Assembly: GCA_900617105.1 (NCBI GenBank)
Contig: UYFQ01000130.1
Location: 1 to 38,678 of the forward strand
Direction of reading: 5' to 3'
DNA length: 38,678 bases
DNA from: Hydrurus foetidus
Taxonomy: Eukaryota
The position numbers and the translations under genes were made by a program. Under the pieces are notes generated by a model. That model was not told the origin of the DNA and searched no databases. It saw only the letters and a program-made list of their open reading frames with translations. Shown piece by piece: positions 273-22,893 of this stretch (the first letter of the stretch is position 1; each line of letters starts with the position of its first letter).

Positions 273-288
273 CTACTCCTTCCTCCTT
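273..288 (-). other. Polypurine tract of Gypsy A
   Basis: Minus strand AAGGAGGAAGGAGTAG directly before the 3' LTR TG. Confidence 0.85.
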
Positions 289-604
289 AAAATTTAAGTT
301 AAGTGAAAGAAAATGAATGTGAGTGAAAATACATGTGGTAACGTATAGCTCATTTGAAAAAGGTGCCACTTCAAATTATTCAGGGATCCCATACGCCTAT
401 CTATCGTCAAAGATTTGGTAGTATGTGTGGATATGAAAATCAAAATGTTGTTGACACGATTTTCATCGGCGGCACTCCTTAGAGTCGGGGTATAATATCT
501 AAACAATTATGTCAGACTCTTACTGACTAAAAACTCCCAAAAAGAATGTTGACCGACAACAAACAAAAAATAGGGTTGAAATCCATCATGGATATTGTTT
601 AGTA

Positions 605-3084: not shown

Positions 3085-3197
3085 GTTACGGTAATCTATA
3101 ACGAATCTTTTAGATCCGTCAGCCTTAGTTACTAAAAATCCTTGGCTATAATAAGCCGCCGTGGATTTCTCAATAATACCCTGCTCAATGAGGATAT

Positions 3198-5807
3198 TTA
3201 ATTGTCTAGTAATCTCCTTCTGATTGGCTGCTGATTGAGGTCTAGGTGGTTGTCTATTTTTAGAGACACGCCACTTAGGTCCTGAACAACCAGATCAAAA
3301 GGAGGAATAGAAGCAGGCTGAGATGAAAGTGTATTTGAAAAGATATCTCTGTATTCAATACAGAGTAGTCTAATCAACTCCTGAAGTTCAGGAGTACCCG
3401 ATATGTTAATCAGGGATACTGGGTCAACCGGTTCCGGATTGGTATCCGGTAACCAAGGTGAAAAGGTACTAGCCTCATGTTCACCGATTTCATCATCATC
3501 TGGCATAGCCAGTTGAGATGTATTCTCGGATTGAATGACGAGAGAAGCTAGTAGACCTGATACAATAACCCTTTGGGGTGTTACTGAGGTCGCTGCCCTG
3601 TGCACTATATTAGTCGATGCTAATTGACTAGGCAACTCGAGGAATATTTGTGATTCCCGAATTGTCACTCGTCCGATCACAACATCGACTGAAGACTTGT
3701 TTAAAATAATTGCTTTGAAATTTAAAAAAGTATTTTTATTTAAACGTTCAGAAAAGTAAGTCATTTTCAAATTTATAGACTTAGAAATGTTATAACATTT
3801 TCCATCTAAGGCTGAACAAACAGTCAGTGTCTTGTCGAAAATAATAAATTCTTCTAAATGAAAATTCTTAATTACACGCATGGCAACAAAATTGCCGGCG
3901 AGCGATCCCGTATCGATCAGCACTTGGACTTCATTTCTTGGCTGGCTGGGCTGTGACACATAGGTGACAGTAGCAGTTAGAAAGTCGGCTGACGAAAGGT
4001 TCGTAAGAGCTCCCAATATGGAAGAAGGAATAACAACATCAGTGAAACTAATAGTTGATGATAACTTACTTGTCTTCTTTAAGCTCTTTTGCTTAGTGAC
4101 CGGCTTAGACGGACCCTCCGGTACAGCCGAGGCTGACGCGGTAGCAGTAGAAGAAGAGGAAGAAGAGGAGGTGGTAGGCACGTACGCTCCTCTTGCAACC
4201 AATGCATCAGGGTAATCCTTTTTCAGTTTCTTAAATGCATTGCTATCAGCATATGCACTGTCAGAAGAATTGAAGTAGGGTGATGCAGTAAATCTACACA
4301 CAGAGATAGTGTGATTAGATCTTCCACAACCAACACAGACCTGTACGGTGCGAGTGGTTGAGGGATTCGAAGACTTTGCAGTCTTCGCGGACTTAGCACG
4401 TGGTTTGATGGTGTCCTCATCAGGCTCAGCAGCGCGTTTGGAGATAGGCTTATCTTTAGAACGCGTAGCTGGGCCTGGAGTAACCTCATAACCAGCAGCC
4501 CGAAGCTCGTTAGCTGAGTTTCTGAGAGTAGTCAGTTGCGTCCACCAAACGAATCGAAAATCTTTCAAATCGTTGATTGGAACAGTCTCACCGTTCACCT
4601 TGCGGCGTAAGATGAGCTGCCAATTGACGGGGTGGGTAGGCAACTGACGCTCTAGAATCTTAACAGCCTTAAGCTGTTCCTCAGCAGTAGTGCTGGGGAA
4701 ATTTGCTACCAATGCACCAAGGGCAGTATCGTTACAGGAGTCAGTCTCAATGTTGTTCAAATCAAATCTGAAATTGAACGATGAGACTTGCTCGAGGAAC
4801 GATGCCTGACCCAAAGGTGTATCGATGGACTCATCAGGTACTGCCTTGAGGAGTTCTTTGCAGAATCTCTCGGTAGTCCATGACTTCCACTCTTCGCACT
4901 CGTCGCGAATTGCTCTCTCAGTGCAATACTGCCTTTGCAGGAGTGTTACAAGAGATTGCTCGACGTCTAATGGTACCACGTCAAGAAACGTATAGGGGCA
5001 ACCATTCTTGCGAAGGTCGTTGGTGATGCTTAAAACTTCCAGATGAGTTGGAACCTTGCTGAGCTTTCTAACCTTTTCATGAGGTAATAGATAGCGTGCA
5101 GCAAGGTTTGAAACAACAACATCGGTAGTAACACCACCAACGGTAGCAAAAGTTGCCACACTCTGAACATTACTGTTCATGACATTGCTGTCGGAAGTGG
5201 GCAACAGGGAATCGGTTTGCACCGGGTTTGCAGGCAAAACTGCGGCAGATAACACAGGCAGCACAGGCAAAGCAGGTAAGACATCACGCACAATGACAGG
5301 TAGTGGCGTGATGTCGGTGGCGGCGATGGCGGTGATGGCGGTGATGTCGGCGGTGGCGGCTATCATCGTGGATGATGATGGTGATGGTGCTGGTGGCGAA
5401 GGCGCCGGCTCCAAAAATACTCCATCCACTCGCTGGGGAAGTTGTTGATGTTCAACAGAGACTTCCCCCGCTTGGGATATCGCTAGATCCGCTGTAAAAG
5501 CTCCAGATGGAGCGGAAGATGGCTGCAAAAAATTTTGCAAGGGGTTTCCCCCTCCCACGCCGGGGGCCAAATTCGAGAAGGGGTTAGAGGCGATAGATAG
5601 ATGTGCTGCGACGTCAGTCGCAGCAACAGATGGCTCTGGAAGCGAGGGAGGATTCGCCGAGTCGGAATCTCCCGTTGTGCTAGCGTCCTGGCTGTTGGCG
5701 ACGATTTCGTCGACAGCGTCAGTTGATGGCGCTTCCTGTGAAATCGACAGGGGAGCCGTCGAAACGGCCGATACCCTGGAAAGTCTTCGTCGGTTGCTGG
5801 AAACCAT
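3198..5807 (-). pseudogene. gag: gag-protease of Gypsy A (originally continuous with pol; frameshifts at about 3280 and 3100-3140)
   Basis: CCHC knuckle CVGCGRSNHTISVC; aspartic protease LIDTGS; RT N-terminal sequence continues in other frames. Confidence 0.9.
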
Positions 5808-5907
5808 ACTGGTGATCAGTGCCAGATGGTCGTCGGATGTCGGCGGTTGAAAATCTATCTAGCTCTCCAGTAACGAGAGTTCGTCTAACAACTCTCAATA
5901 TTAATAT

Positions 5908-6180
5908 TGTCGTCGCGGCCGGATTCGAGTACGAAGAATCCGGGTAAAGACGGTATGCTGGAGTAAACTGTTAGGTTAGTTACAGTTTGTGAAAGAAGCG
6001 AGCAAGCAGCTAACAACAGACACAAACGATAGGCTACAAGGGTGCTGATGCTGATGAGCGTCCGTTACCGGTGGACAGTTGATGTGGATGAAAATAGACT
6101 ATGGGTGCGTGAATTATATACATACGTGAATATATACAAACGTATACGAAGCGTACGGTGAACGTACGTGCTAGGCTACA
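5908..6180 (-). repeat. 5' LTR of Gypsy A (273 bp, TG...CA)
   Basis: Direct repeat of 1-272. Confidence 0.95.
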
Positions 6181-6233
6181 GCACCACGACACATAAGATA
6201 CGTTTGACAACATCACCAACAAAAAAAGAAGGC

Positions 6234-6316
6234 TTCCCGCCGTCAGGCGGGAATTTCCCGCCGTTTCGGCGGGAAACTTTCCTACCCCTGATTTGAAATT
6301 TCCCCCCCCCCCAAAG
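6234..6316. other. Cluster of TTCCCGCC/GGCGGGAA inverted repeats plus a degenerate half of the YR-unit boundary site
   Basis: TTCCCGCC-GTCA-GGCGGGAA; TTTCCCGCCG-TTT-CGGCGGGAAA; TTGAAATTT-C11-AAAG resembling 10961-10985. Confidence 0.6.
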
Positions 6317-6802
6317 ATTAATGAATTTACCGCCAATATCAGAATTTTATATTAAGCCAAATTTCAGTCAATTCAAGCTCTATTATAAAACCGAAAATGT
6401 TGTTCTGCTGACGAGATCTGCTCGTCGGAAAGGATGATATTATTCACATCACCAACTCAAACTCAGATCTAGAACACATCAAAGGACACAGAATGGCTGC
6501 GCCCGAGTCAGAAATTCATCTTCTTCGTTGAACATGAAGCCCCATGAATCAAGAAATCTTTTCGGACGGGCTCAGATTCGATTCAAACCGGTGTCAACAG
6601 GTTGAATTCATATCATTGCAAAGTTGCCAATTGAATCTGACGTCGCCGTCCGCCTACATTAACCACTCATTGAATATATCTTCTACGGCCACTTCAAAAT
6701 CAGCTGGAGACCGTAATCAATGATTAGATCGCACTCATAAAAAATTCTGCTCAACATCAACCATCTCCGCATTTCTCGATAACTGAACTCCACATTCCAA
6801 GT

Positions 6803-8132
6803 GACCGCCAACTCATTTTAGTTGTTTTAACAACTCTAACCCACCTTGGATGCACCACTGAGCAGCGCAATACCGTCGCCATCGTGCTCCGGCGCCTGGA
6901 AGCAGGTTGTCAGAGCGGTCAAAAGTGAGTACTACAGCTGCAGGAGACCACTTTGGGACACTCGCCCTACTCGACCGCCAACTCATTTTAGTTGTTTTAA
7001 CAACTCTAACCCACCTTGGATGCACCACTGAGCAGCGCAATACCGTCGCCATCGTGCTCCGGCGCTTGGAAGCAGGTTGTCAGAGCGGTCAAAAGTGAGT
7101 ACTACAGCTGCAGGAGACCACTTTGGGACACTCGCCCTACTCGACCGCCAACTCATTTTAGTTGTTTTAACAACTCTAACCCACCTTGGATGCACCACTG
7201 AGCAGCGCAATACCGTCGCCATCGTGCTCCGGCGCTTGGAAGCAGGTTGTCAGAGCGGTCAAAAGTGAGTACTACAGCTGCAGGAGACCACTTTGGGACA
7301 CTCGCCCTACTCGACCGCCAACTCATTTTAGTTGTTTTAACAACTCTAACCCACCTTGGATGCACCACTGAGCAGCGCAATACCGTCGCCATCGTGCTCC
7401 GGCGCTTGGAAGCAGGTTGTCAGAGCGGTCAAAAGTGAGTACTACAGCTGCAGGAGACCACTTTGGGACACTCGCCCTACTCGACCGCCAACTCATTTTA
7501 GTTGTTTTAACAACTCTAACCCACCTTGGATGCACCACTGAGCAGCGCAATACCGTCGCCATCGTGCTCCGGCGCTTGGAAGCAGGTTGTCAGAGCGGTC
7601 AAAAGTGAGTACTACAGCTGCAGGAGACCACTTTGGGACACTCGCCCTACTCGACCGCCAACTCATTTTAGTTGTTTTAACAACTCTAACCCACCTTGGA
7701 TGCACCACTGAGCAGCGCAATACCGTCGCCATCGTGCTCCGGCGCTTGGAAGCAGGTTGTCAGAGCGGTCAAAAGTGAGTACTACAGCTGCAGGAGACCA
7801 CTTTGGGACACTCGCCCTACTCGACCGCCAACTCATTTTAGTTGTTTTAACAACTCTAACCCACCTTGGATGCACCACTGAGCAGCGCAATACCGTCGCC
7901 ATCGTGCTCCGGCGCTTGGAAGCAGGTTGTCAGAGCGGTCAAAAGTGAGTACTACAGCTGCAGGAGACCACTTTGGGACACTCGCCCTACTCGACCGCCA
8001 ACTCATTTTAGTTGTTTTAACAACTCTAACCCACCTTGGATGCACCACTGAGCAGCGCAATACCGTCGCCATCGTGCTCCGGCGCTTGGAAGCAGGTTGT
8101 CAGAGCGGTCAAAAGTGAGTACTACAGCTGCA
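6803..8132. repeat. Tandem array, 170-bp unit, about 7.8 near-identical copies
   Basis: Period 170 (6803, 6973, 7143...); only one variant base seen, in the first copy. Confidence 0.97.
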
Positions 8133-8288
8133 TGAATTATGAATTATTTGATCGTGCTTAGCTACTTAAATCAAGAATGGTTTCGCATGAATTATGAGTT
8201 AATTGGTCGCACTATGCTACTTAAACTGTTCGCCTTCGAGCGAGTACTGGTCTCTGCCTTTATCATACTAAACAGTAATCGTCAGGAA

Positions 8289-10825
8289 TCAAAACAGCTG
8301 GTTACACAGATACTCTAACTTTGCTTCCTTTCTGAGAGGAATTTTTCGTGCTGTTGCTGAGCTGCTACTGCTGCAGCTTTTGCTCTTGCTGCTGCTACTG
8401 CTACTACTCGCAGCAGCGGAGCGGATGCCAGAGATGTCACTCTCAGTAGGATCAACATACTTCAACATTTTCCATCGCCTTGCCATTGCCCCAACACTGA
8501 GAGTCTTGACGTTGCCGACTTTCCCCTCCTTCAAGATTAAGTAGTCATTGGTCAGCTTGGCAAGTGCCTTTGATATGCCGCGAGATTTCATCTCCCATAC
8601 TTTGTAGTTGGGATCCTTGGCAGCATCCGGTACAGGAGCATTGAGGTCATCGATTTGTTCCTTACTTGCAAGCTTCACGATCAGTTTCATTATGCTTTTG
8701 GCATCACTAGCATTGTCACTGCTTGTCTTGTTGCCCACCACCATTGCCCATTTCGAAGAATTCAGTGTTACTCCAGTGCTCTTAATTTGCCCCAGGTTCT
8801 TAGCGTACCAGTCATAAATGAAGGTCTCTGCCGGCATATGAGAGAGCTCAAGTATATTGTACCCAGTAACCGACCTCCGAAATTGATCATGAAATAGTTG
8901 ACATCGGCTGGCAGGAACAGTCTCCTTGATAGACTCTACATAATGCATGAGGACAATGTAGTGTTAGGCACTGCGTAGGTAGGCATTTGTGAATCAGCAG
9001 CTATATGTACTGTAGTACCTTCAACTTCTCCAGCATCTGGAATTGCTTCCACGCAGGGTCTTTTCTTTGCAGAACTACGAGGAGCGTGACAGCTATTCGA
9101 TTTATCCTCTTTCATTCCATTCACTGCATATTTGACATCATTTAACAGACCAATCATGGACTCCATTTGTGCGGTCATAATTGCATTAGCCTGTCGAAGT
9201 TACAAAGAGTCAGCATCATAGGAAGAACAGAGAGGCAGAGGAGAAATTAGAAATAAATACCTCTTGGCTGCTTCGAACTCTTTCCTCAAGGATGATAATT
9301 CTTTCTAAAAGAACAGGAATGAGAGATTCACCCTCTCGTAGGTTGGCCTCCATGTTATCATTCTCAAACTTCGTCTTTACTGATGAACTCCATTGAAGCA
9401 GTACTGCAAGAGTTATCCCGCACTCATGAGCATTCTCTGTGATAACCCTGAGTACCGTGTGATTCGGGTAAGTTGAGCGCATATGGGGTAGATAGAGTAG
9501 AAAGGTTGCGAACAGGCATTTTGCCAAAGGCCACAGCTTCCCTCCTGAGTGCATTGAAGGAACCGAACACTGGAACAACTTCATGATGAGGTTTTCCACT
9601 TGAGTGTGATTCGTAGGAGTAATGAATACACATTCTGGCTGGTACACACTGACCCGCGAATCAGCCCAACCTGATAAGGCGCGTCCCGCTGATGAAATAG
9701 GGTTCAAAATTCCTTCGATATATATGAACAGACGGCTTATTCCCTTTCCTTCCCATCCACCACGCAGTACGATATCGATGAACTTTATCGTTCGATGGGA
9801 AGCGAGATAATTTGCTGCGCCGACCCTGCAAAATTGGAAAAGTACGAAGTTAGCTCTCTAGATAAGAAAAACTTAAAAGTATTTCAGTAGACGTACCTGA
9901 GTGATGTTCCTTCGTAGTCTCTACTGCTTTGAGCAATAGTCTCATCGTCACATTGCGAAAGAGCTTCCCTCACATACTTCGTGACCAATGATGCTGCAGA
10001 CTCGGCGTTTCGAGCAAGGTCAGGCATGATCCAGTTGCAGTCACTAGTCTGACTCAACTTTGCGTTGCCACCACCAAGAGCGAGGTAGCAGGCCAATGAG
10101 TGATAAAAGTCTATCACCATGGACGATTTGTCCGAAAAAAAGTTCATGGGGTCCGAATCACCCGTTTTGATCTCACTCCAGTCCATCAGAAGATTACCCA
10201 GCTCGTAATCCCACACCACCGATGACCACGTTGAGCACGCGGCTTCTCCAGCCCGACCTACTGCCAAGAATGTCATATTGATTGCCAGTCTTCTTTTCAT
10301 GGCCTCCATTCTACCGTCTCGCATTAATGCTTCTGATATGGTTATCAGTAAATTCCTGCCGATAGCTTGAGAACTCTCTGAAACCGGTTGTCCGTTGACT
10401 ATCTGTCGACGATTGACTTTTTTTTCTAAAGCAACTCTCAAAGACGGATACCATCTGTCAAGGCAGCGCACTTCCCATAATGCGTTTTGTGGAAACTTCT
10501 TCTGGGCAAACTCCTTAATCGCGGACAAATATTGAATCGCAGTCCTAGACATCAGATAATCGCGGTTTGCGTTCTTGCTGTTCGTAGCATTTTCAAGGAG
10601 GTAAGTAGAGAACTCGCGAAATAGTTTCTCGCTACAAAGTTCGTCTTCACTCAACAGGTCAATTGATGCTTTTTGAGTCTGAGGGCTGATGCCAATTACT
10701 TTCGTCGCGCAAAACTGATTGAATTGCACCTTTGCCGAAGATCTCCCAGCTTCAGTTGCCCTAGAAGTTCCGGCAGAAGCCAACTCTAGGTACTCAACAG
10801 GAACTGCAACACGAGTATCAGTCAT
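8289..10825 (-). CDS. Crypton-like tyrosine recombinase A, about 770 aa; exons 10825-9897, 9825-9261, 9190-9019, 8935-8289
   Basis: YR motifs GRAGE (R), IKTG (K), GTSLR (H-x-x-R with H>T), RGGW, LFIY (Y); three GT-AG introns of 71, 70 and 83 bp restore one open frame; C-terminal FIYDWY domain possibly GCR1_C-like. Confidence 0.8.
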
Positions 10826-10967
10826 TTTCGAGATAAGTAAGGATGGAATACCGAGGCAACTGCTGATGCTGTGACTGTCCACGCGCCGCACTGTGTCTGT
10901 CCACGCGTCTAATTCTGTTCAAAACTTCATTATACTTCAAAGATATGGGACACGTATTCATCGAAAT

Positions 10968-10998
10968 TTCCCGCCATCCCTAAAGGGGATGGCGGGAA
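10968..10998. other. Putative YR recombination site, 13-5-13 perfect inverted repeat
   Basis: TTCCCGCCATCCC-TAAAG-GGGATGGCGGGAA at the junction of units A and B. Confidence 0.65.
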
Positions 10999-11344
10999 GC
11001 CACTATGATATCCTTCAACAACTCAGTATCAGAACACAGACAAGCACAAAGAATTGCAGCTTCTGAGTCAGAAATTCGTCTTCCTCGTTGAAGATGAAAC
11101 CCCACCAGCCAAAAAAAATCTCGTGCACCAACAGATTCGATTCAAATCGAAGTCAACAGGTTGAATATGTACCATTGTGATCATGCAACATGAATCTAAC
11201 GTCGCCAGTCAGCAAAAATGACCACTCACCGCAAATATCTTTCACAGTCACGGAAAAAATCAGCGAGATACTAGAATCGAAGAGCAGACTCAACTAACTG
11301 CTACGACTGTCGACCTCGGCATAAAACATATTTTTAGACCAATG

Positions 11345-12091
11345 TTAGACACTCACCCCAGTCGACCGCCGACCCAATCCAGTTGTTCTAACAACTTCAC
11401 CCCACATTGGAAGTACCACTGAGCAATGCTGTATCATCGCCATCATCTTCCGGCATCTCCACACAGAGTGCCACAGCTCCCAAAATGACCGCAGCAGAGC
11501 AGCAGGAGACCCATATTAGACACTCACCCCAGTCGACCGCCGACCCAATCCAGTTGTTCTAACAACTTCACCCCACATTGGAAGTACCACTGAGCAATGC
11601 TGTATCATCGCCATCATCTTCCGGCATCTCCACGCAGAGTGCCACAGCTCCCAAAATGACCGCAGCAGAGCAGCAGGAGACCCATATTAGACACTCACCC
11701 CAGTCGACCGCCGACCCAATCCAGTTGTTCTAACAACTTCACCCCACATTGGAAGTACCACTGAGCAATGCTGTATCATCGCCATCATCTTCCGGCATCT
11801 CCACGCAGAGTGCCACAGCTCCCAAAATGACCGCAGCAGAGCAGCAGGAGACCCATATTAGACACTCACCCCAGTCGACCGCCGACCCAATCCAGTTGTT
11901 CTAACAACTTCACCCCACATTGGAAGTACCACTGAGCAATGCTGTATCATCGCCATCATCTTCCGGCATCTCCACACAGAGTGCCACAGCTCCCAAAATG
12001 ACCGCAGCAGAGCAGCAGGAGACCCATATTAGACACTCACCCCAGTCGACCACCGACCCAATCCAGTTGTTCTAACAACTTCACCCCACAT
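11345..12091. repeat. Tandem array, 171-bp unit, about 4.4 copies, homologous to the 170-bp unit
   Basis: Period 171 (11345, 11516, 11687, 11858, 12029); shares GACCGCC, AGTTGTTnTAACAACT, ACCACTGAGCA, TCGCCATC and GCAGGAGACC with array A. Confidence 0.97.
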
Positions 12092-12199
12092 AGGAGATAT
12101 TTTGGAAGAGTCACAATTAGTTTTAAAGCGTGTTAGTTAGTTTACATACGTGAGAGAAGATTTACTATCGAGATAATTTCTTAAACAGTTACTTGTACT

Positions 12200-13120
12200 T
12201 TATTTCAAGATTGCACTTTTCGCTTTGATGCTTGCATTCTTGAAGCTTGAGCTTGAGCTTGATGTCTTGTGTCTATTGCTGTTACTCATCGCATTGCGCA
12301 ATTGTTGTAGCTCATCTTCAGTCGGAGCAGGAAATTTCTTGACCTTCCAACGTCTCGCCATTGCTCCAAGCGTGAGAGCCTTGGCATTACCGACTTTGCC
12401 TTCTTTCATGGTCAGGAAATCATTCGTCATAGTGGTAAGCACTTTGCAGATACCCCTAATCAGATGTTCCCAATCGCCATAAGCTGGATCAGTAGCTGCA
12501 TTGGGCTGTGTGCCCTTCAGAGAATCCAGTTGGCTCTTGGTGGCAAGCATTTCAACCAATTTCATGAGACTCTTGGCGTCAAGAAGATTGTCTGTTGAGA
12601 CCTTGCTGCCAATAGCTGACATCCAGGACCGCTGCATCAACTCAACTTCGTTTCCTTTCACTGCTCCGAGTCCCCTCGCATACCAATCATATATGAATGT
12701 CTCTGTGGCCTTTGAGCTAAGTGTTGCCGGATTGTATCCTGATGCTGAAGGTCTAAAGTGACTGTTAAAAATGGTTGCAACACTGACATCCCTAGCGACA
12801 GGTTCCTCCTGCACTGCAGCTGCGTAGGGTTGGGTGTCTACAATGAGAGTGCCGTCATTGCGAGACCTCTTGCACCCACTACTGGCACTTCGGGGGGTAT
12901 TCTGTGTCGAGCATAGCATGCTGAGTTTTGCATTTATCTCGTGGATGGTACCGTGCATTGACTCAATAGTAGATGCCATGTTGGAAATTGACTGCAATGG
13001 ATTATATACGAATTGTTAGAGTGTAATTGTTCAGAAGTAGATAACATTTAGGTGTACCTCTTGATTGCTCGCGACCACTTTCTCGAGGACTACTATCTTC
13101 TCGAGTAGTACCGGTATTAG
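12200..13120 (-). pseudogene. 3' part of YR gene B (exon piece 13120-13058, intron 13057-12992, exon 12991-12200)
   Basis: LIPVLLEKIVVLEKVVASNQE matches LIPVLLERIIILEERVRSSQE of gene A; ETFIYDWY, KEGKVGN and GAMARRWK are shared. Confidence 0.85.
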
Positions 13121-13449
13121 TATGCTGCGTCACGGCTTCGACGAACTGGTCGAAGATGAAACGTTAATTGTCCAGTTGGGCAGATTGGCGCAACTGGGGA
13201 TCTTGTCAGACGAATTGGACTGAGCAAGGGATTTGGCTGACTCAAAGGAGTCGAAGTTGGTTTTGGGTTTCAGTAACGTTAGTTAATAAGATGTGAAAGG
13301 AGTGTGAGATTAGCTACGATGGAGTATGTCTCGAGTTGAAGTTGTCGAACAGTCAGAAACCGAAAACTGGTCCGAAAAACTAGTGGCTACGAGTGACGTG
13401 CGTTGTGTATGTACATACGTGTGATTGATATGAAGTAACGAATGTAACA
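13121..13449 (-). repeat. 3' LTR of Gypsy B
   Basis: Direct repeat of 20294-20622. Confidence 0.95.
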
Positions 13450-13460
13450 CCACCCCCTTT
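13450..13460 (-). other. Polypurine tract of Gypsy B
   Basis: Minus strand AAAGGGGGTGG abutting the 3' LTR. Confidence 0.85.
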
Positions 13461-13569
13461 CCGGGTGAAATGTATTACAATGGTAAAAAATAAATACGCT
13501 GTATTAACTACATCTCAGTGAGTTCATCAAATACAGGGTATCGCTAGAAAAGCTAAATTATGTGAATTT

Positions 13570-13656
13570 AAAAAATATGGGTGTGAGCTGTACAGGGTTC
13601 GAACTCACGGCCTTGAGCGTTGTGAGTCTCGTGCTCTCCCAATAGACCAGTGCAAA
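13570..13656 (-). ncRNA. tRNA-type Pol III cassette (A box, B box, T6 terminator) inside Gypsy B
   Basis: TGGTCTATTGG (13649-13639), GAGTTCGAACCC (13606-13595), then ...CCCATA-TTTTTT; the cloverleaf stems are poor. Confidence 0.5.
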
Positions 13657-13824
13657 AAGAACATTTTTCATGCCACTTTTCAGGGCGCCGGAAAAATTGT
13701 GACGTGGCTGCAAAATGGTTTTTTCAGGAAAGGAAAAAGTCGAGTCGCGAAATATTCGACTATACACCACATACCTCATACTGAATGAATCGTTAGGATA
13801 TTCACAACTCAAGTACACAGCATC

Positions 13825-14463
13825 ATGAAGGACGAGTTCCAGCCGTCGAAAAACTTGTGCATGGCCGCTGCGATGGTTTTGCCACTGTCTGCGCAGCAGC
13901 AGGGGTGGATGCGACTGGGTGGCGATGCAGGCGATGTGTTCAAGGAATCTGCGGGTTTGCCTCTTGATCATAAGCTTCACTACGGCGCATCGGTGGAAGA
14001 TGCAGTTGGTTTTCTGAAGTATGTGTGTGCTGGGAATCGAGAACTGGGGATAAAGTTGAAGTTTGAGTTCAGGAGGGTTGTAGGAAGACACGACAAGAGC
14101 CGCCGTTGGAACGTTCAGTCGTTGATGAAGACAGTAGGAAGAAGGAGAGGAATTTATGTGATATTCGGCAAAGCAAAGCGGTTGAACCGGTTTCACGAGG
14201 CGCTTATCAAGAGGATGAAGAAAGCAGATTGCATGGGTGAAGAACTCGAGATTTTCAGCAAGGTGGCCAAGGGATTGAGTCGTAAAGATCATGCATGTAG
14301 TGTTCGTAATGATGAAAATGGATTGAGATTATTTGATAATGCATGTACTAAGGGTAGCATTGATTTTAGCATTGTGAACTTGGCAGGCAAGATGATTGAT
14401 TTGACGGATTGTTATTATTTTGACTTGTATGAGAAGGGAAAGAAAGCGAAGATAACTAAATAG
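13825..14463 (+). CDS. Antisense accessory ORF of Gypsy B, 212 aa, putative papain-fold (Josephin-like) cysteine peptidase
   Basis: ATG-initiated intact ORF between pol and the 3' LTR; QPSKNLCMAAA ... DHACSVR ... LRLFDN pattern (C-H-D). Confidence 0.6.
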   Translation: MKDEFQPSKNLCMAAAMVLPLSAQQQGWMRLGGDAGDVFKESAGLPLDHKLHYGASVEDAVGFLKYVCAGNRELGIKLKFEFRRVVGRHDKSRRWNVQSLMKTVGRRRGIYVIFGKAKRLNRFHEALIKRMKKADCMGEELEIFSKVAKGLSRKDHACSVRNDENGLRLFDNACTKGSIDFSIVNLAGKMIDLTDCYYFDLYEKGKKAKITK

Positions 14464-14623
14464 AGTATTATTTTAGGGGGCAAACCCACATTTTGAATGC
14501 CGTCCTCACATAGTAGCTTCGGCTATGTTTCATTGAGTGGGAAAAGGAATGTGGGCAAGCCTCAGACGTGTTCTCAAAGACTGAAGTGTTCCAGCTGGAG
14601 CAGGATGGAGTTCGAAGGTAAGT

Positions 14624-17600
14624 TTACTTGTACTGTTGTGGAATGATGTTTGACATGTTGTTTTGTTCGAGATATTCGTGTACAACCGATACCTTTTTCA
14701 TTTCAGCCCATGGTTCCCATGAATCATGTGCTGAGGAGTAGTTGAACCAGCGGATTAGGAACTCGAGGGAGGACACTTTCTTCGCATTTCCACGGTGAGT
14801 AATGACTGAATCGACAATGAATTCATCACGGTCGAGAAGTGCTGATGTTTGTGCATCGGTTGTAGTACCAACGAATGGTGTAACTCTGCTTGAGTGAAGT
14901 ACTGAGATGATGTTGGTAACGACATGTTTGCATTTAATATCGTTTTTTATTTGTTGTATTACTTCGTAGGGTCCGAGGAGCTTTGGAGAAAGCTTACTGG
15001 ATCGTAGGGATTGTGGAGTCTCTAGTGGATTCCATAGGATGAAGTCTCCAGGTTGGTATATGTTGTGCGAACTTGAAGGCGTGTTGGATTGACGTTTGCT
15101 GCGTAGTGATTCCTGATATGTACTGGTTATTGATCGTACTATTGCTAGATTGCGATCAAGGGCTGTTACAAGGTCACAATACTTGTGTCCCGGCAGTAGT
15201 GGCGGCGGAAGTTGGAACCGTGCATGATCTCGCGTGCCGAATTTGAGTTCGACGGGAGACAAGCCTCCAATTTCGGTGTTTGGCATCGTCATAAGTGCGT
15301 GATTGATTAGGGGTAGGACTGTGTCGGAAGCCCATTGATTTGTAAATCTTTCATCATGTACTAGTCTACGTAAATGTCCCATGAATAGAGCATTTACGTG
15401 TTCTGTACCGTTTGATTCGTGTCGTCCGACGAGGGATATTCGGTGTGGAATACCGATCCAGCGATTGAGATGGTTCAGTACTTCGGCGGTGAATGCACTG
15501 CCAGGATCGGAGTACAGAGAGTCATAGGATCCAAAGGTACAGAAGTGTTTGAAGAGTATGAGTGCAACTGTTTTGGCTGTGTAATCTCGGATCGGATAAG
15601 CCTGAGGGAACTTTGTGTCGAGTTCTACGACAAGAAGTAGACCGACATATCCATCTTCGTCGTGTGGAGTGACAGTGACGTGATCGATTCCTATCGACCG
15701 AGGATGATGAAAAATTGTCTCACGGATCTCATTGTTGGGAATTGTGTGCATTGGGAGTCGGTCCTTCTGACAGATAGGACATTCAGACACAAGATCTTGA
15801 ACAACACGTAGAGGGATACCATGGCCAGGAAATTGTCGACAGAGAGCAAGGTAAGTACGTTTTGCACCGTGGTGTAGTGAGCGACCACCATGAACAGCAT
15901 CAAACATGTGCTGTACAGTAAGAGGAGTTGAGATGGTAGATAGAGTCGTTTGTGTTGTAGGCGGAGGGTACATGCGTGAGAGCCAATCTGCGACAGTATT
16001 GCTCTTGCCGGGTATATGCTTGACGTCAAAGACAAAGCTCTGGAGAAGGACACGCCAGCGAACAACGATCGGAACATGGCTGGTCTCAATCCAGACAAGG
16101 TTGCGGTGGTCGGTTTCCATTAGGAACGGTTTACCACGTAGGTAGTAGTTAAATTGAGTGACTGCATAATACAGCGCATACGCTTCTTGTTTGAAGGTGT
16201 CCCAATTGACTGCAGCTCCAGAGTATTTATGTGAGGCAAATGCGATTGGTTGGTGTATGACTGTACCATTGGAGTCTGTGTACTCTTGAAACAGAACAGC
16301 GCCGACGGCGTGATCAGAAGAGTCTGATCGAATAATCCATGGCAGCGAGTAGTCTGGAAAGTGTAGTGTGACGGACTCAGTGATGGCTAATTTGAAGACT
16401 TCGAACAAATGTTTATAGTCGGTTTTCCATGTTGAAGGGTCCCAGTTGAAGCCAGCGGTAGTGCATTCGTATAAGGCGGATGCCCATGAGGCGAAATTGG
16501 GAATGTGAGTGTGGAAGAAGTTTGCTGCTCCTAAGAAGCTTTGCATTTGTTTTTGTGTTGTTGGGAAGATCATCGATGAGATGGCAGCTTTGCGTGCATC
16601 CGAGAGCTGCCATGAACCAGGGTGAACTTCGTATCCAAAAAACGTAACAACGTCTGTACCTATCCAAGACTTCTTCATCTTTAGGACGAGACCATACTTT
16701 TGGCAACGGTGTAGCACCTGCTCAAGTTTCGACAGAGCATCGTGGTAGTCGGAGGCAAGAATGAGAAAGTTGTCAAAGATGACTATAATCCAGTCGTCGA
16801 AGTCGGCGAAGATACGGCGAACGATGGACTGCAGAATACCAGATGCTGGACCAACTCCTTCCGGAAGAAACTTTGGCCGGAACAATCCCCATGGTGTAGA
16901 TACAGAGAGGAGGTTGGAACTAAAGTCATCGATAGGAATTTGATGGAATGAATTTGTCATGTCGAGATCGACGAAGATTTTCCAACCAGCAGCTTTTGAA
17001 AGGGACTGTTGGACGTGTGGTATTGGCTCTTGTGGGATGTTAATAAATGGATTAATAGGGCGATAGTCGCCGCAGAGCCGTATAAATGGAGCTGTTGCTT
17101 TGGGTGCTATTACGAGCGGACAAGCAATTGAAGATGTAGATGGCTCGTAGAAGTACGTACGCATTCGATCAAATTCAGTTTTAGCATCTTGAAATAAGGC
17201 TTCTCTAACGGGACGAGCTCGTGCCCTTAGGTAATCTGGTAAGCCAGGTTTGACATCTAGATGGTACGGCACCATGTCAATTCCCTTCCACGCACGTGGA
17301 ACAAAGACATCGTAGGCAAGTTCTGATTGGAGGAGTATCATGATTGCTGGGCAAGCAGTGCGAATTTCAGTGGTCACGTGTGTGATCAGATCAGAGTCAT
17401 ATATAGCACGAGCTTCTTCCGGAGTAGTTGTAAGGTAGGCAAGAATATCATCGGGGAAACTAGTCGGGTCTGGGGTATTGATCTCTTCAGGTGCAAGAGA
17501 GTCTATGGGCTTAGACCAGGGCCTAATGATGTCACCAGGATCTGGGGAGCATAGTAGCGCAGATAACATGGTGTATTGATTTTCGACCCGGTCGTCAGCG

Positions 17601-18352
17601 AAGACGTGACCTAGGCGGGGATGTGCGAGAATGTTTGTTACTGTTCCATCTTCGAGCGCAAGTAGGTGAATGTGAGTGCTGGCACTGTTGCACATCACAT
17701 CTTTGCGTCCAAGATAGTCTGCACTGCATTCTTGCAGTTTCTGTTTCGCTTTTAGTACGTCCTCTTGATTGTGTTGAAGACGAAGCTTACTTATTGCTTT
17801 TGTATCTTCTGTTAAATTTGTTCCTAGATCATTGGTGATTGATAACTGGCGTGCTGTTAGGACAGAATCAGCGAATAGGTCGTAGAATGGACCGATGAGA
17901 TCAATCAAACCAATGATAATGTCATGACTTAGGATGTCAAGGACGCTGTACCAGAGGCGATGTTGATGATTGTTGTTGGTGGAATCCAGGATACCGACAG
18001 TGAGTGGAACTTCAAGTTGAATTGACAGGAAGCGAGCATCGCCGAGGCGAACAATTTTATCGATTGGACGACTGAGGTCAGTAACACTTGGAGGTAGGCT
18101 GTCGTATAGTTCTCTGGAGATGAAGTTGCTTCCCTGTGCGCCAGTATCAAGTAAACCACGACTGAAAGGCATCAGACCAGTGTTAGTTACAATGGTACCA
18201 GAACGAATGAAGGGTTGACATAGAGTTTGTGACGTAGTAGATGTCGCAGATGCTAGTTGGTTGAGCAGTGCTTGCGTTAGGATTTTGTCCGGGTCAAAGA
18301 TTGTCGGATGCGGATAGTCATTAGAGGAGGCGAGGTGATCTTCGATATGCAT
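14624..18352 (-). CDS. pol: Pol of Gypsy B: protease, RT, RNase H, integrase, chromodomain
   Basis: LLDTGA, DYRPIN, LPEGVGPA, IFDN, SDSSDHAVG, TDHRNL, H..H..CPIC, IDH/SDPG/TEH, LLGPY, FLIRWFNY..DSWEP. Confidence 0.95.
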   Translation of the reverse strand: MHIEDHLASSNDYPHPTIFDPDKILTQALLNQLASATSTTSQTLCQPFIRSGTIVTNTGLMPFSRGLLDTGAQGSNFISRELYDSLPPSVTDLSRPIDKIVRLGDARFLSIQLEVPLTVGILDSTNNNHQHRLWYSVLDILSHDIIIGLIDLIGPFYDLFADSVLTARQLSITNDLGTNLTEDTKAISKLRLQHNQEDVLKAKQKLQECSADYLGRKDVMCNSASTHIHLLALEDGTVTNILAHPRLGHVFADDRVENQYTMLSALLCSPDPGDIIRPWSKPIDSLAPEEINTPDPTSFPDDILAYLTTTPEEARAIYDSDLITHVTTEIRTACPAIMILLQSELAYDVFVPRAWKGIDMVPYHLDVKPGLPDYLRARARPVREALFQDAKTEFDRMRTYFYEPSTSSIACPLVIAPKATAPFIRLCGDYRPINPFINIPQEPIPHVQQSLSKAAGWKIFVDLDMTNSFHQIPIDDFSSNLLSVSTPWGLFRPKFLPEGVGPASGILQSIVRRIFADFDDWIIVIFDNFLILASDYHDALSKLEQVLHRCQKYGLVLKMKKSWIGTDVVTFFGYEVHPGSWQLSDARKAAISSMIFPTTQKQMQSFLGAANFFHTHIPNFASWASALYECTTAGFNWDPSTWKTDYKHLFEVFKLAITESVTLHFPDYSLPWIIRSDSSDHAVGAVLFQEYTDSNGTVIHQPIAFASHKYSGAAVNWDTFKQEAYALYYAVTQFNYYLRGKPFLMETDHRNLVWIETSHVPIVVRWRVLLQSFVFDVKHIPGKSNTVADWLSRMYPPPTTQTTLSTISTPLTVQHMFDAVHGGRSLHHGAKRTYLALCRQFPGHGIPLRVVQDLVSECPICQKDRLPMHTIPNNEIRETIFHHPRSIGIDHVTVTPHDEDGYVGLLLVVELDTKFPQAYPIRDYTAKTVALILFKHFCTFGSYDSLYSDPGSAFTAEVLNHLNRWIGIPHRISLVGRHESNGTEHVNALFMGHLRRLVHDERFTNQWASDTVLPLINHALMTMPNTEIGGLSPVELKFGTRDHARFQLPPPLLPGHKYCDLVTALDRNLAIVRSITSTYQESLRSKRQSNTPSSSHNIYQPGDFILWNPLETPQSLRSSKLSPKLLGPYEVIQQIKNDIKCKHVVTNIISVLHSSRVTPFVGTTTDAQTSALLDRDEFIVDSVITHRGNAKKVSSLEFLIRWFNYSSAHDSWEPWAEMKKVSVVHEYLEQNNMSNIIPQQYK

Positions 18353-18379
18353 TTCGGCAAAGGAAGGCCTCGCAAAATC

Positions 18380-20092
18380 CTATTTCTGATTTGGACGTGT
18401 CGAGGTGGACGGATAAGTAGGCTTTATGACTCCACGGAAGTTCGTAGAGCTGGTGGTTTTAAAGCTTTGTGAGTTGTTTGTTTTCAAGTTGCTACTTGGT
18501 TCTTGTTTTGGCGAAGACCATGGCTCGAGCTGTCCATGCTGTTGGAGCTCACGTTTGGCAAGTAGTGTAAATGATTGAATGCAGCGTTCTTGACCTGCAG
18601 TTGAATGGTCGAAGGTGCAACCAGAACTCTGGCGTGTGCATCTACCGTAGACAAATGCTTCGCTGCAAAATCCACGAAATGTGGCAGAAACAGCTGAGCG
18701 TGAACGATGCTGATCTGTACTGATTGCAAGAAGTGAATCCTCAGTAGATATTTCCGCGTTCGCGTCATTTGAAAGATCTAGATCTTCAGCCGAGTATGTA
18801 GGCGCATTTTCATCTTCTGTGTCCTCATCATTTTCATTGTCATGTGTGGATGACATCTGTTGGGTAGAGAGCTCGATTGATGCAAAGTTGGACTGCAGTC
18901 GTTGGTCATGTCTGCGTGGAGTGGTGAATTGCGGACGGTTAGGTGCTGAGATCTGCTGGCGTGTATGGGATTCGCCTTGAGTGTAGCGTAAATCTTCATA
19001 GCGTATAGGAGTGAGCTTTGCATCAAAGTCTTGACGAGACTCGCTTTGGACGCGGCCTTCCATGAGCCTGGCTCTGATGAACTTGACTGATGATTCTAAA
19101 GTCTTGTGTTTAACCAGTTCGTCCTTACTAAGCCACTGTAAGATTGAGTCTTTTTGTGTGCCCAAGGAGATGAGCCATAAGGCAATTTGGCCAGGGCTGT
19201 CCCTAGTTCCATAGGCTTGGACCGGTATCTTTGATTTGTTCGTGCTATGGTTGGAAGTTTCCTCGGACATAAGATCATGTAGGTGATGTAAGTCGGTCAG
19301 TGACTTCATTAATGGGGCGTAAAACGTACTGGAGAAGTTCTCGGTGGTTATGGATGGGGCTTGTGGGATTCCTTTGCCGAGAAATAGGATGAGTTCTTTC
19401 GAGTAGAGTTCTTTTGTGCGTGGCCTCGCAGCCTCTACCAGGATAGCTTGGACTTCCGAATTTGATAGAGATAGCCAATCTTCTACCATAATTTCGTTGG
19501 ATTCAAGGCCAGTTATGAGAGATTCTCGATAACGATGGGAATTCCACGATGCTACGACGTGTGGACGTAGGTTGTAGGAAACCATGTGAGCCATTTTAAT
19601 TTCGCGGCCAGGATATTTAGAAGATAGTAGTTGAAGTTGTCGAGCTAAGTACTGAAGACCTTCAAGTGAACTGACTTTGAGTTCCTTGTCGTATACAATA
19701 TCGGCTTGAAGCACTTGTATGTTCGATTTGAACGGCGTATCTGCGAGGAGCGTATCCGTGAGCTGTGGGGTTGATGGAAGTTGAGATATGCCGAAGAACA
19801 TTGAAGATCTTCTGCTGCCACGAGATCTAACGGGATAAGGAGTCTCCATGCTTTCCGAGCCCATTGGAGACTGAGTGCTAGATCTGTTAATTGCTTTGAT
19901 TGCCTCTTTCAATTCGTTGATGTCGGCGCGGTTGCTAGCCTGAGTTTGATTGCTTGATATCAAGAATTGGGAAAACATTTCCTTGAGCTCAAGAATTGCA
20001 TTTTCTGTCTGATCTTCTTTTAAGCCCTCGATCTTCTTCTTTGCTTCTTCCTTCTTCAAGTCTTGAGTTTGGATTCCCTTTCCTTCCGACAT
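18380..20092 (-). CDS. gag: Gag of Gypsy B (first ATG at 20092), with a CCCH zinc finger
   Basis: Long ORF between the 5' LTR and pol; N-terminal coiled-coil-like region; C-x8-C-x6-C-x3-H near the C-terminus. Confidence 0.85.
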   Translation of the reverse strand: MSEGKGIQTQDLKKEEAKKKIEGLKEDQTENAILELKEMFSQFLISSNQTQASNRADINELKEAIKAINRSSTQSPMGSESMETPYPVRSRGSRRSSMFFGISQLPSTPQLTDTLLADTPFKSNIQVLQADIVYDKELKVSSLEGLQYLARQLQLLSSKYPGREIKMAHMVSYNLRPHVVASWNSHRYRESLITGLESNEIMVEDWLSLSNSEVQAILVEAARPRTKELYSKELILFLGKGIPQAPSITTENFSSTFYAPLMKSLTDLHHLHDLMSEETSNHSTNKSKIPVQAYGTRDSPGQIALWLISLGTQKDSILQWLSKDELVKHKTLESSVKFIRARLMEGRVQSESRQDFDAKLTPIRYEDLRYTQGESHTRQQISAPNRPQFTTPRRHDQRLQSNFASIELSTQQMSSTHDNENDEDTEDENAPTYSAEDLDLSNDANAEISTEDSLLAISTDQHRSRSAVSATFRGFCSEAFVYGRCTRQSSGCTFDHSTAGQERCIQSFTLLAKRELQQHGQLEPWSSPKQEPSSNLKTNNSQSFKTTSSTNFRGVIKPTYPSTSTRPNQK

Positions 20093-20293
20093 TGTTTGAA
20101 AGAGAAAGGAGATGTAGACCTCTTCTTCTCGGAGTGGCTTTGCGAACGTATTGGATTTAGACTTCACTTACCTCAGAGATTCTGAATCTCGCTGAGCCAG
20201 GGCGTTCACTGCTTTCTGGCGTGTAAGAAACAAATCAACTGAGGGGAGTCGATTGTAATAAACGTTGTCTCGTGTTTACTAGAAATATATATT

Positions 20294-20622
20294 TATGCTG
20301 CGTCACGGCTTCGACGAACTGGTCGAAGATGAAACGTTAATTGTCCAGTTGGGCAGATTGGCGCAACTGGGGATCTTGTCAGACGAATTGGACTGAGCAA
20401 GGGATTTGGCTGACTCAAAGGAGTCGAAGTTGGTTTTGGGTTTCAGTAACGTTAGTTAATAAGATGTGAAAGGAGTGTGAGATTAGCTACGATGGAGTAT
20501 GTCTCGAGTTGAAGTTGTCGAACAGTCAGAAACCGAAAACTGGTCCGAAAAACTAGTGGCTACGAGTGACGTGCGTTGTGTATGTACATACGTATGATTG
20601 ATATGAAGTAACGAATGTAACA
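20294..20622 (-). repeat. 5' LTR of Gypsy B
   Basis: Direct repeat of 13121-13449; minus-strand TGTTAC...GCAGCATA. Confidence 0.95.
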
Positions 20623-22190
20623 TTAGCGTCTCTCCTGTATTCAGACTTGCCTCCATATTCGACTCATTGAACCTTTCTTTGACCGCTTTCCCCCACTCCA
20701 ATAGATCTTTTAAAGAGATGTCGCATTCATTTGCCTTGTCGATCAGTATTGTCAGTAGCTCATGTCTCGGGTACTTGCTTCGCATCTCAGGCAGGTACAT
20801 CAGGACAGTGGCAAACATGCACAGTGCGAGAGGCCATAACTTGCCATTCGCGTGCATGTCGGGGACGGAGCAGTGGAATAGTTTCACGACAAGATTGCCA
20901 ATTCGAGTCATATTGCGTGAGTCCAAGAAACAACACTCCGGTTGGTGCACGGTCGAGTGAGAGTCTCTCCAACCAGCTAGCGCTCGACCGGCGCATGATA
21001 TTGGGTATTGAATCCCTTCTATATAGATGAATAATCTGCTGATGCCTTTTGCCTCCCAGCCGCCCCGGAGGACAATGTCGATGAATCTTGTTGTCTTGTG
21101 GGAAGATAAGAGACTCGCCGCTCCGACTCTGATACATATAGCTTAGTTTAGTGCTGTGCACACCTTGACATTAATTTGAAACAGTTCAACATACCTTAAT
21201 GAAGTCCCCTCGTAGTCTTTACAGCTGTCAGCAATCGATTTGTCTGCGCAATCTGCCAAGGCCTCTCTGATATACTTTGTGACAAGTGACGATGCAGAAT
21301 CCAGATTCCTAGCAAGGTCTGGAAGTATCCAATTAGACGGGGTTCCTTTGCTAAGTTTCGAATTTCCACCACCCATGATCAAATAAGACGCCATTGCGTG
21401 ATAAAAGTCAATCTCCATCGAGGAAACGTCGGAGAAGAAGTTCATGGGGTCCGAGTCCCCTTAGAATTTCGCGGTTAGAACAAGAGCGATCAGTGAATTA
21501 GTGATCTAGATTAGTTTTTACAAGAGTTCAAGATTTCTACACACCAGTCTTTTTTTCGTTCCAATTTATCAAAAGGTTCCCAAGTTGCCGATCCCAAATG
21601 GCAGATGTCCAAGTAGACAAAGCCGACTCCCCAGATCTTCCAACCGCGAGAAATGTCATAACTATTGCGAGACGTCGCTTCATTGCCTCTGCAGTTCCCA
21701 TAGACATCAACGTCTCGTTGATAGAAAGTAGCAAACTTCGACCAATAGCTTGAGAGCTCTCCGACACGGCAAAACCATTGATCATTTGCCGACGACTGAT
21801 GTTTGTCTCGATGGCAAGACGCAGATAAGGATACCACGTATCGAGGGACTTCTCGATCCAAAAAGGGTTTGTCGAGAACTTTTTCTGTGCATGCTCCTTT
21901 AATGCTGATAGATACTGTATCGCTGTCCCAGGCATCAACAATAATCCAGTGCTTTTCCTTTTTGCATGCTCTGCCAGGTACGTAGCAAACTCTTTGAAAA
22001 ATTCCTGCTTGCAGATTTCACTCTCGGACAGCCTTCCAAGAGAAGCGATTCCTTTAGTATCCAAACCAATCTGTTTGTTGGAGCAGAAAATATCTGCATG
22101 CCTTAATGCAGAAACTCTGCCAGCCTCTGTTGATTTGGACGAACCACATGTAGCCATGGCTTTGTAGATTACAGGAACGATTGCGGCCAT
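20623..22190 (-). pseudogene. 5' part of YR gene B (exons 22190-21545, 21459-21195, 21128-20623), interrupted by Gypsy B
   Basis: GRSGE, KKTG-DSDPMNFF, GTSLR-VGAA, RGGW, LFIY; introns of 85 and 66 bp give an open frame colinear with gene A. Confidence 0.85.
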
Positions 22191-22348
22191 CGGCAAGAAT
22201 AGGTTCTTTCGCAGTGCTTTTCGTACTGAATTTTTTGCTACAGCGCTGTTGCATGAGCTTCATAATCATCTTAATTGCCGCACTTCGCAGCAGTGCTGAA
22301 CATTGATGACGTGATCGTAAGGCATCGTCAGGAGGGAGATCTTGAAAT

Positions 22349-22379
22349 TTCCCACCATCCCTTTGGGGGACAGTGGGAA
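22349..22379. other. Second putative YR recombination site (13-5-13, arms match at 11/13)
   Basis: TTCCCACCATCCC-TTTGG-GGGACAGTGGGAA preceded by GAAAT, as at 10963. Confidence 0.6.
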
Positions 22380-22893
22380 GTCATAGGAATTTTATTCAAA
22401 AATGATGGTTGCAATTGTAGATTCGATTCTAGATGCATCAACGTCGACGTCTCAAATAGTAATTTCTTTTCCATACAGTCGGGGTCGGCTGGAGCCGACG
22501 TTTAATATGGAGTGATACGGCGATTGTATCTCCTCAAATGATAACATTTTATTCCATCTTATTATCTGTCTATTCGATAGATCTTGAGCAGGCGTGTATG
22601 GTAGACTGATTACATTTTTTATTTTTTAGTTACTGAAGGAGGAGATGACTTTTCTATTCTACACTCAAAGTCGCTGATGTGGCACTGACCGTACGTACAG
22701 GTCTCACGCATACGTACGTACTTCAAAAATGTGCGTACGGATGCCGTGAGGTACATCAAAATGAGTGGAATTCAAGCATGTATCTGCGTCAACCCGCTGA
22801 CTTAAAAATACGGGAATTTCTGGAGGTATTTTGCTGTCGAGAAGTCTTGAAGGACCGGCATTCAAACGACGGCTCCCAGCTCTCACAATAAAA

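What the first reader, a model, noticed from the sequence alone, without database searches (positions are those of the whole stretch)
10968..10998. loxP/FRT-like 31-bp inverted-repeat site at the YR unit boundaries
Seen: perfect 13-bp arms TTCCCGCCATCCC / GGGATGGCGGGAA around TAAAG (also parseable as 12-7-12). The same geometry recurs at 22349-22379, each time about 150 bp upstream of a YR start codon. Known: YR core sites are two inverted 11-13 bp binding elements around a 6-8 bp spacer. Inference: this is the recombinase's crossover site, which would give a candidate new eukaryotic recombinase/site pair, and gene A looks intact.
Basis: partly seen in the sequence, partly recalled or inferred. 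Interest (0 to 1): 0.85.

Follow-up and report, generated by a model that had tools for sequence, protein, structure and literature searches.

The report
Crypton transposon end signal, not loxP
The palindrome is real but is not the cut-and-join point: it sits 17 bases inside the end of a 4.8-kb jumping gene that has inserted into a relative, and it is likely a docking site for that element's own predicted recombinase, which would give a testable enzyme-and-site set for a poorly understood class of eukaryotic transposons.

Summary
The 13-5-13 palindrome at 10968-10998 is real and beyond chance; the copy at 22349 pairs 11 of 13. It is not the crossover site. Contigs from three studies join window 6219 straight to 11016. 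That is the empty site, so element A is 6223-11018 (4,796 bp), bounded by a CAA direct repeat and nested in the arm of related element B. Flanks diverge after 11018, not in the spacer. CAA lies exactly 17 nt beyond the palindrome in A, in B and in 10 of 11 loose-end rows. All six TTCCCGCC motifs of the window lie in A's two ends. Gene A splices to an open 770-aa protein with R-K-(T)xxR-W-Y, and a full-length homologue folds like Cre. This is a Crypton-type (CryptonS-like) transposon. The palindrome is most likely a subterminal binding site for its own protein (about 0.55; binding untested); an E2F promoter site or a hairpin signal are the rivals. The filled allele was not seen in the two runs checked. 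The scan earlier noted a similar gene between tandem repeats in another genome (e1-7560833).

The parts
10968..10998 (.). Perfect 13-5-13 palindrome, subterminal in the gene-upstream end of element A; the block shared with other families spans about 10963-11001
   Evidence: loose ends cluster at 10960-10964 and 10998-11001
11016..11018 (+). CAA direct repeat at the gene-upstream junction of A, 17 nt from the palindrome; inferred strand-exchange core
   Evidence: contigs carrying A's end stop matching at 11018; empty-site contigs start matching at 11016
6220..6222 (+). CAA direct repeat at the other junction of A
   Evidence: the 30 letters before 11016 in run X1 equal window 6190-6219
6223..11018 (-). 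Element A, 4,796 bp, Crypton-type, inserted in the arm of element B
   Evidence: filled window against empty-site contigs in X1, X3, X7, and by coordinates X4
6231..6276 (.). Four TTCCCGCC motifs as two inverted pairs at A's gene-downstream end; 6231-6241 is the exact reverse complement of 10991-11001
8289..10825 (-). YR-A gene; predicted exons 10825-9897, 9825-9261, 9190-9019, 8935-8289; 770 aa; R191, K220, T307 in the His place, R310, W334, Y345; conserved C-terminal domain
6803..8122 (.). 170-bp tandem array inside A, about 71% alike to the array of B
6181..6222 (-). Piece of element B's gene-downstream arm, cut off by Gypsy 1 on the left and by element A on the right
11019..22399 (-). Rest of element B: arm, 171-bp array (11336-12095), YR-B gene split by Gypsy 2, palindrome, predicted end
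   Evidence: the end at 22399 is inferred by analogy with A and was not mapped by reads
12200..22190 (-). YR-B gene; predicted exons 22190-21545, 21459-21195, 21128-20623 continuing 13116-13058, 12991-12200; 755 aa when the Gypsy insertion is skipped; 54% identical to YR-A
22349..22379 (.). Imperfect palindrome of B (11 of 13 pairs); both arms read TTCCCAC in place of TTCCCGC, one two-sided change
22397..22399 (+). CAA 17 nt beyond B's palindrome; predicted end of B
13121..20622 (-). Ty3/Gypsy chromodomain retrotransposon (329-bp LTRs, 99.7% identical, TTAG duplication) interrupting YR-B

Best explanation
The palindrome lies 17 nt inside the mapped end of a 4.8-kb Crypton-type transposon and is likely a binding site for the element's own predicted recombinase, which would cut and rejoin the DNA at the short CAA core outside it. 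Shown: the element's limits, the CAA direct repeat, the fixed 17-nt spacing, and the same motif at both ends. Inferred: the element excises as a circle that brings both ends together, so that an 11-bp inverted pair (10991-11001 and 6231-6241) flanks the core at 14 and 8 nt. Protein bound at these motifs, possibly through the C-terminal domain, would organise the complex, as arm-type sites do for bacterial integrases (recalled). The circle would then integrate at CAAAAA-like targets, here at a one-mismatch target inside a relative.
For: Empty site: loose ends before 11016 match window 6190-6219 at 30 of 30 letters in X1 and 29 of 30 in X3 and X7, three studies. The joined B sequence also aligns in register across the junction with the matching part of A. 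Variable flanks: 3 contigs in X1 and 2 in X3 run on with unlike letters after 11018 (agreement 0.63 and 0.75). Spacing: 10 of 11 distinct loose-end rows behind 10998-11018 have CAA after 17 nt and 1 has AAA; they cover at least three other end types, although the 17 nt themselves differ (counted by hand). Motif: 6 copies against 0.49 expected, all in A's two ends. In B, whose protein is 54% identical, both arms changed in parallel. Protein: catalytic pattern conserved in homologues, several with His at the T307 place; the alignment profile aligns weakly to Cre (E 0.022); the model of homologue P0036 (pLDDT 83.7) has Cre as best match (E 7.7e-5). Lead only: the C-terminal domain's nearest Atlas cluster (score 0.90) has GCR1_C in 33% of members; yeast Gcr1 binds CTTCC (PMC7466126, table row), which the motif at 6231-6241 contains.
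Against: No binding or recombination data. Pfam does not call GCR1_C on the C-terminal exons or on 26 homologues. The spacing within the inverted pairs differs between ends (15 nt against 4 and 5 nt). TTTCCCGC is also a listed E2F site and lies in the promoter position. The perfect direct repeat is only 3 bp. No contig in X1 or X3 bridges 11018/11019 (depth there equals the single empty-site contig), so the filled allele rests on the window alone. Loose-end tables were cut (24 of 56 rows seen, 12 of 13).
Confidence: 0.55

Rival explanations
1. The palindrome is a promoter element bound by a host factor of the E2F type. It would time recombinase expression to S phase and play no direct part in recombination.
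For: TTTCCCGC is listed as the plant E2Fa element (PMC1832190, table row) and is present at 10967-10974. The site lies 142-158 nt upstream of the ATG. In Starships, circle formation raises recombinase expression by joining the two ends (10.64898/2026.09.21.753150, abstract), which could explain motifs at the far end.
Against: B's arms both read TTCCCAC, off the listed E2F sequence. The distance to the CAA core is fixed at 17 nt while the distance to the ATG varies by 16 nt. The inner arm bases beyond the E2F octamer also pair.
Confidence: 0.2
2. The signal is a DNA structure, a hairpin or cruciform near each end, recognised in single-stranded or supercoiled DNA, not a double-stranded sequence motif.
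For: Both ends of A fold into hairpins (-22.7 and -17.3 kcal/mol, no shuffle control run). One pair changes on both sides between A and B.
Against: Two other changes in B break pairs (11 of 13). The same octamer is used in hairpins of different shapes, which points to sequence recognition. One two-sided change is a single event.
Confidence: 0.15
3. One reading: the palindrome is a loxP/FRT-like core site and strands are exchanged in its spacer.
For: Geometry near the textbook 11-13 bp arms with a 6-8 bp spacer (PMC3212892, passage). Many contigs branch around the palindrome: depth peaks there and X1's YR-A contig ends at 10989, so some swaps between families within the arms are not excluded.
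Against: The empty allele lacks the whole palindrome and joins at CAA 17 nt away. A's flanks vary only after 11018. A's other end has no 13-5-13 site. Branching near the palindrome is expected from a motif shared by several families.
Confidence: 0.05
4. The palindrome is a non-functional relic inherited by related elements.
For: An equally good palindrome occurs in an unrelated repeat in the same window.
Against: It is kept between elements whose proteins are 54% identical and whose adjoining DNA has diverged, at a fixed distance from the end.
Confidence: 0.05

Closest known systems
CryptonS transposons of oomycetes and diatoms (Kojima and Jurka 2011, PMC3212892; passages, section 6 and supplement 1 read)
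   Same: One tyrosine recombinase gene with a conserved C-terminal region and no Pfam GCR1_C call; no terminal inverted repeats; short direct repeat at the ends; size near the one diatom member listed (4,671 bp); homologues come from diatom transcriptomes.
   Different: Listed ends are mostly TATGG (CTGTAAG in Phaeodactylum). Here the repeat is CAA, or 5 of 6 bases over the hexamer. The passages read describe no subterminal inverted motifs or internal tandem arrays. No direct sequence comparison with CryptonS proteins was possible.
CryptonF-1_cRei of Chlamydomonas (PMC9977147; passages read)
   Same: A short motif at the element end recombines with a near-identical target, and clean empty sites exist.
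   Different: The motif is CACCG with target CAYCG; CryptonF proteins carry a recognised GCR1_C domain.
Tn916 and CTnDOT integrases (PMC5812530; passages read)
   Same: Works-like comparison: short cores that tolerate mismatch, A/T-rich targets, proteins bound at or near the ends.
   Different: Bacterial conjugative elements with an excisionase; no such genes here, and no homology test was run.
Cre-loxP and Flp-FRT
   Same: Recombinase fold: best matches of the homologue's model.
   Different: There the crossover is inside the palindrome's spacer; here it maps 17 nt outside.

Membership tests
Crypton (eukaryotic YR DNA transposon) | Encodes a tyrosine recombinase with catalytic R-H-R-Y | tested here: met
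   R191, K220, R310, W334, Y345 conserved; His place is Thr in A and B and His in 8 of 32 long homologues; Cre fold for homologue P0036. Activity untested.
Crypton (eukaryotic YR DNA transposon) | No reverse transcriptase, LTR or terminal inverted repeat | tested here: met
   No other long ORF in 6223-11018; only an 11-bp subterminal inverted pair, 8 and 14 nt from the cores.
Crypton (eukaryotic YR DNA transposon) | Short (4-6 bp) direct repeat at the ends matching the target | tested here: inconclusive
   3 bp perfect, 5 of 6 over the hexamer, from one filled/empty comparison.
Crypton (eukaryotic YR DNA transposon) | Multi-copy and mobile | tested here: met
   Different flanks after 11018 and an empty site in three studies.
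Crypton (eukaryotic YR DNA transposon) | Circular excision intermediate (proposed) | not testable with these tools
CryptonS | No GCR1_C domain but a conserved C-terminal region | tested here: inconclusive
   Conserved region shown (probability 97.7); no Pfam GCR1_C call, yet an Atlas lead to a cluster with 33% GCR1_C.
CryptonS | 5-6 bp direct repeats, mostly TATGG | tested here: inconclusive
   Not TATGG, but the paper lists other ends too; length 3 perfect or 5 of 6.
CryptonS | Stramenopile host | tested here: inconclusive
   Host not identified; distant homologues are from Grammatophora and Skeletonema; nearest Atlas cluster mostly diatom, phylum known for 4 members.
CryptonS | YR clusters with CryptonS in a tree | not tested
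   No reference CryptonS sequences were available from the tools.
CryptonF | C-terminal GCR1_C domain | tested here: inconclusive
   No Pfam call at E 0.1; weak Atlas lead.
loxP/FRT-type core site | Strand exchange inside the spacer of the palindrome | tested here: not met
   Junctions map to 6220-6222 and 11016-11018.
loxP/FRT-type core site | Same site in direct orientation at both ends of the excised unit | tested here: not met
   A's other end has short inverted pairs with 4-5 nt spacing and no 13-5-13 site.
loxP/FRT-type core site | 11-13 bp arms around a 6-8 bp spacer | tested here: inconclusive
   13-5-13 as read; 12-7-12 only if a pairing base is counted into the spacer.

The most novel reading that the evidence does not exclude
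A widespread freshwater protist family of Cryptons uses a two-part attachment site like that of bacterial integrases: a relaxed CAA(A/C)AA core plus arm motifs at a fixed distance, read by the recombinase's own GCR1_C-like C-terminal domain, with motif and domain changing together between families. This would be a first anatomy of Crypton ends and a compact, currently mobile eukaryotic integrase that needs only a 5-6 bp target.
Probability: 0.35. Interest if true: 0.75.

Novelty: new variant of a known kind. Interest (0 to 1): 0.52.

Why it matters
Crypton ends are hard to map, and the 2011 survey reports no conserved nucleotide sequence among them and no study of their transposition (PMC3212892, passages). 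Active Cryptons were first reported in 2023 (PMC9977147). Here an intact gene, both junctions, an empty site, a target consensus and a candidate binding motif at fixed spacing are all in hand, so the mechanism can be tested with a mini-element. Searches listed no paper whose title or abstract start describes such subterminal motifs in Cryptons. Repbase and Goodwin 2003 were not available, so the feature may be recorded there.

Tried and rejected
No whole genome is held. The search for related loci with alignment A1 confirmed no locus in metagenome, viral or prokaryote contigs (0 of 407, 12 and 83 candidate stretches). The palindrome pattern had 0 matches in viral contigs and prokaryote genomes. 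A looser pattern gave 11 metagenome loci; 0 of 11 had a tblastn hit to YR-A and none showed the 17-nt CAA, so they were dropped as unrelated. No RNA holder listed. Exon 1 alone hit no Pfam family and nothing significant in the PDB by sequence, and no longer protein; the longer homologues came. The C-terminal model (pLDDT 68.4) had no clear fold match (Foldseek no E below 0.001; VIA best Z 4.9). A Pfam scan of alignment A2 timed out. Rfam found nothing in 6100-12200. My first reading, head-to-tail tandem units joined at the palindrome, was rejected once the empty site showed nesting. The idea that B sits in a third related element got weak or no support (36 and 548 of 2000 shuffles reached the score). 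The 42-nt B fragment alone does not align significantly to A (78 of 1000 shuffles). Searches for E2F sites in transposons gave nothing relevant; PMC2194621 and PMC12130899 passages were read and added nothing.

Full report
Observation. The window has perfect 13-bp arms around a 5-nt spacer at 10968-10998. Such palindromes occur 4 times in the window and 0 times in 40 shuffles; three of the four are copies of an unrelated 14-5-14 palindrome in a 253-bp repeat. The second site at 22349-22379 is 24 of 31 identical and pairs at 11 of 13. The sites lie 142 and 158 nt upstream of two minus-strand genes.

The genes. Gene A reads as 770 codons without a stop after removal of three predicted GT-AG introns of 71, 70 and 83 nt. 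Gene B gives 755 codons when a Gypsy insertion with a TTAG duplication is skipped, and is 54% identical to A. The downstream ORFs are the C-terminal part of the same protein: uninterrupted homologues of about 700-840 aa exist, and their profile matches the last exon's profile at 97.7% probability. Exon 1 has 675 relatives at E up to 0.001. R191, K220, R310, W334 and Y345 line up with conserved columns. The His place holds Thr here and His in 8 of 32 long homologues. Three of 61 alignment members hit Phage_integrase (best E 9.8e-5, below the curated cut-off). The profile aligns to Cre's catalytic region only weakly (E 0.022). The model of homologue P0036 (32% identical to A over 548 residues; pLDDT 83.7) has Cre as best structural match (E 7.7e-5), then Flp and XerH. 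Gene A itself was not folded whole. All four runs laid have one extra G after 8333, which would change only the last codons; the window may have an error there.

Where the element ends. Twenty of 22 listed runs, from 12 studies (freshwater, sediment, biofilm, air and one organism), hold at least half of the words of the YR-A region. I laid five of them (X1, X2, X4, X7; X1, X3). Contigs carrying the sequence right of the palindrome match only from 11016 and run on to the left with other letters. Those letters equal window 6190-6219 at 30 of 30 positions in X1 and 29 of 30 in X3 and X7, three different studies; X4 shows the same break by coordinates. This is the empty site. The window therefore holds an insertion of 4,796 bp (6223-11018) between two copies of CAA (6220-6222, 11016-11018). 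Independently, the rejoined sequence aligns in register across the junction with the matching part of A's own arm, so it is the original sequence of element B, and A is nested in B. Contigs carrying A's gene-upstream end stop matching at 11018 and continue with differing flanks (3 contigs in X1, 2 in X3, 1 in X2).

The palindrome's place. Depth peaks over 10961-11002 because other families share the block. Of 11 distinct loose-end rows behind 10998-11018 that I could see, 10 have CAA exactly 17 nt after the right arm and 1 has AAA; B has it too. The 17 nt between differ among families. One family shows at least four different flanks in five runs, all starting after CAAAAA. So targets look like CAAAAA, and the window's insertion used a one-mismatch target. 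The tables were cut (24 of 56 rows, 12 of 13), and rows from one family in different runs are not independent events. The octamer TTCCCGCC occurs 6 times in the window (0.49 expected, 0 of 100 shuffles): twice in the palindrome and four times, as two inverted pairs, in 6234-6275 at A's other end. In B both arms read TTCCCAC.

Against this reading. In X1 and X3 no contig bridges 11018/11019, so the filled allele rests on the window alone; a misassembly is not excluded, though it would have to reproduce a clean CAA repeat at both junctions. X1's YR-A contig ends at 10989, inside the right arm, and I cannot see the letters of the branches, so occasional exchange within the palindrome between families is not excluded.

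Mechanism. Shown: limits, direct repeat, spacing, motif at both ends. Inferred: excision to a circle and integration by exchange in the CAA core, as proposed for Cryptons (PMC3212892, passages citing Goodwin 2003, which I did not read) and supported in Chlamydomonas (PMC9977147, passages). The motif most likely binds the element's own protein: its distance to the core is fixed while its distance to the ATG is not, it occurs at the end without a promoter, and it changes on both arms in the diverged relative. The C-terminal domain is the candidate reader. Its nearest Atlas cluster (0.90) has GCR1_C in 33% of members, GCR1_C is the DNA-binding domain of CryptonF, and Gcr1 binds CTTCC. This is a lead only: Pfam does not call the domain. 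The comparison with arm-type sites is recalled; mismatch-tolerant cores of Tn916 and CTnDOT are from PMC5812530 (passages). The main rival is an E2F promoter site (TTTCCCGC, PMC1832190 table row); the two roles could coexist.

Comparison and novelty. The element works like a Crypton and is closest to CryptonS, but membership of CryptonS is not established: no tree with reference sequences, host unidentified, direct repeat not TATGG (supplement 1 read, supplements 2-6 not read). PMC13465315 (passages) repeats that Cryptons have short direct repeats and no terminal inverted repeats. Searches gave no paper describing subterminal motifs of this kind, as far as listings and the passages read show; Repbase was not available, and the supplements of the bioRxiv Starship preprint (abstract and passages) are closed.

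Verdict. The palindrome is real and probably functional, but it is a subterminal signal and not a loxP-like crossover site. New variant of a known kind; interest 0.52.

Noticed in passing
window 27348-27380, 27924-27956, 32464-32496: Perfect 14-5-14 palindrome in three copies of a 253-bp repeat; two of the copies lie within a 576-bp tandem unit (26975-28377). No recombinase gene identified beside it; the element type is unknown.
   Followed up: no
window 22475-26975: TA-flanked DNA transposon with imperfect ~50-bp terminal inverted repeats, a split transposase with a weak DDE_3 hit and a 66-bp tandem array, inserted about 75 bp outside B's predicted end.
   Followed up: partly
   Followed up: partly
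window 13121-20622: Gypsy element whose LTRs read TG...TA with a 4-bp duplication, inside a YR-B exon; LTRs 99.7% identical, so recent.
   Followed up: partly
window 6803-8122 and 11336-12095: Homologous 170/171-bp tandem arrays downstream of both recombinase genes, nearly identical within each element and about 71% alike between them; they lie inside the mapped element A. Function unknown.
   Followed up: partly
window 8333: All four runs laid have one more G here than the window; probable assembly error near the 3' end of YR-A.
   Followed up: partly
window 9826-9896 and 21129-21194: In both genes a predicted intron interrupts the codon of the second catalytic Arg.
   Followed up: no
window 34077-38678: A third Gypsy element on the plus strand, with frameshifts, about 67% alike to the one at 1-6180.
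   Followed up: no
whole assembly: Other notes on the same assembly concern Brevundimonas-like bacteria, so the source is probably a mixed assembly and not one genome.
   Followed up: no
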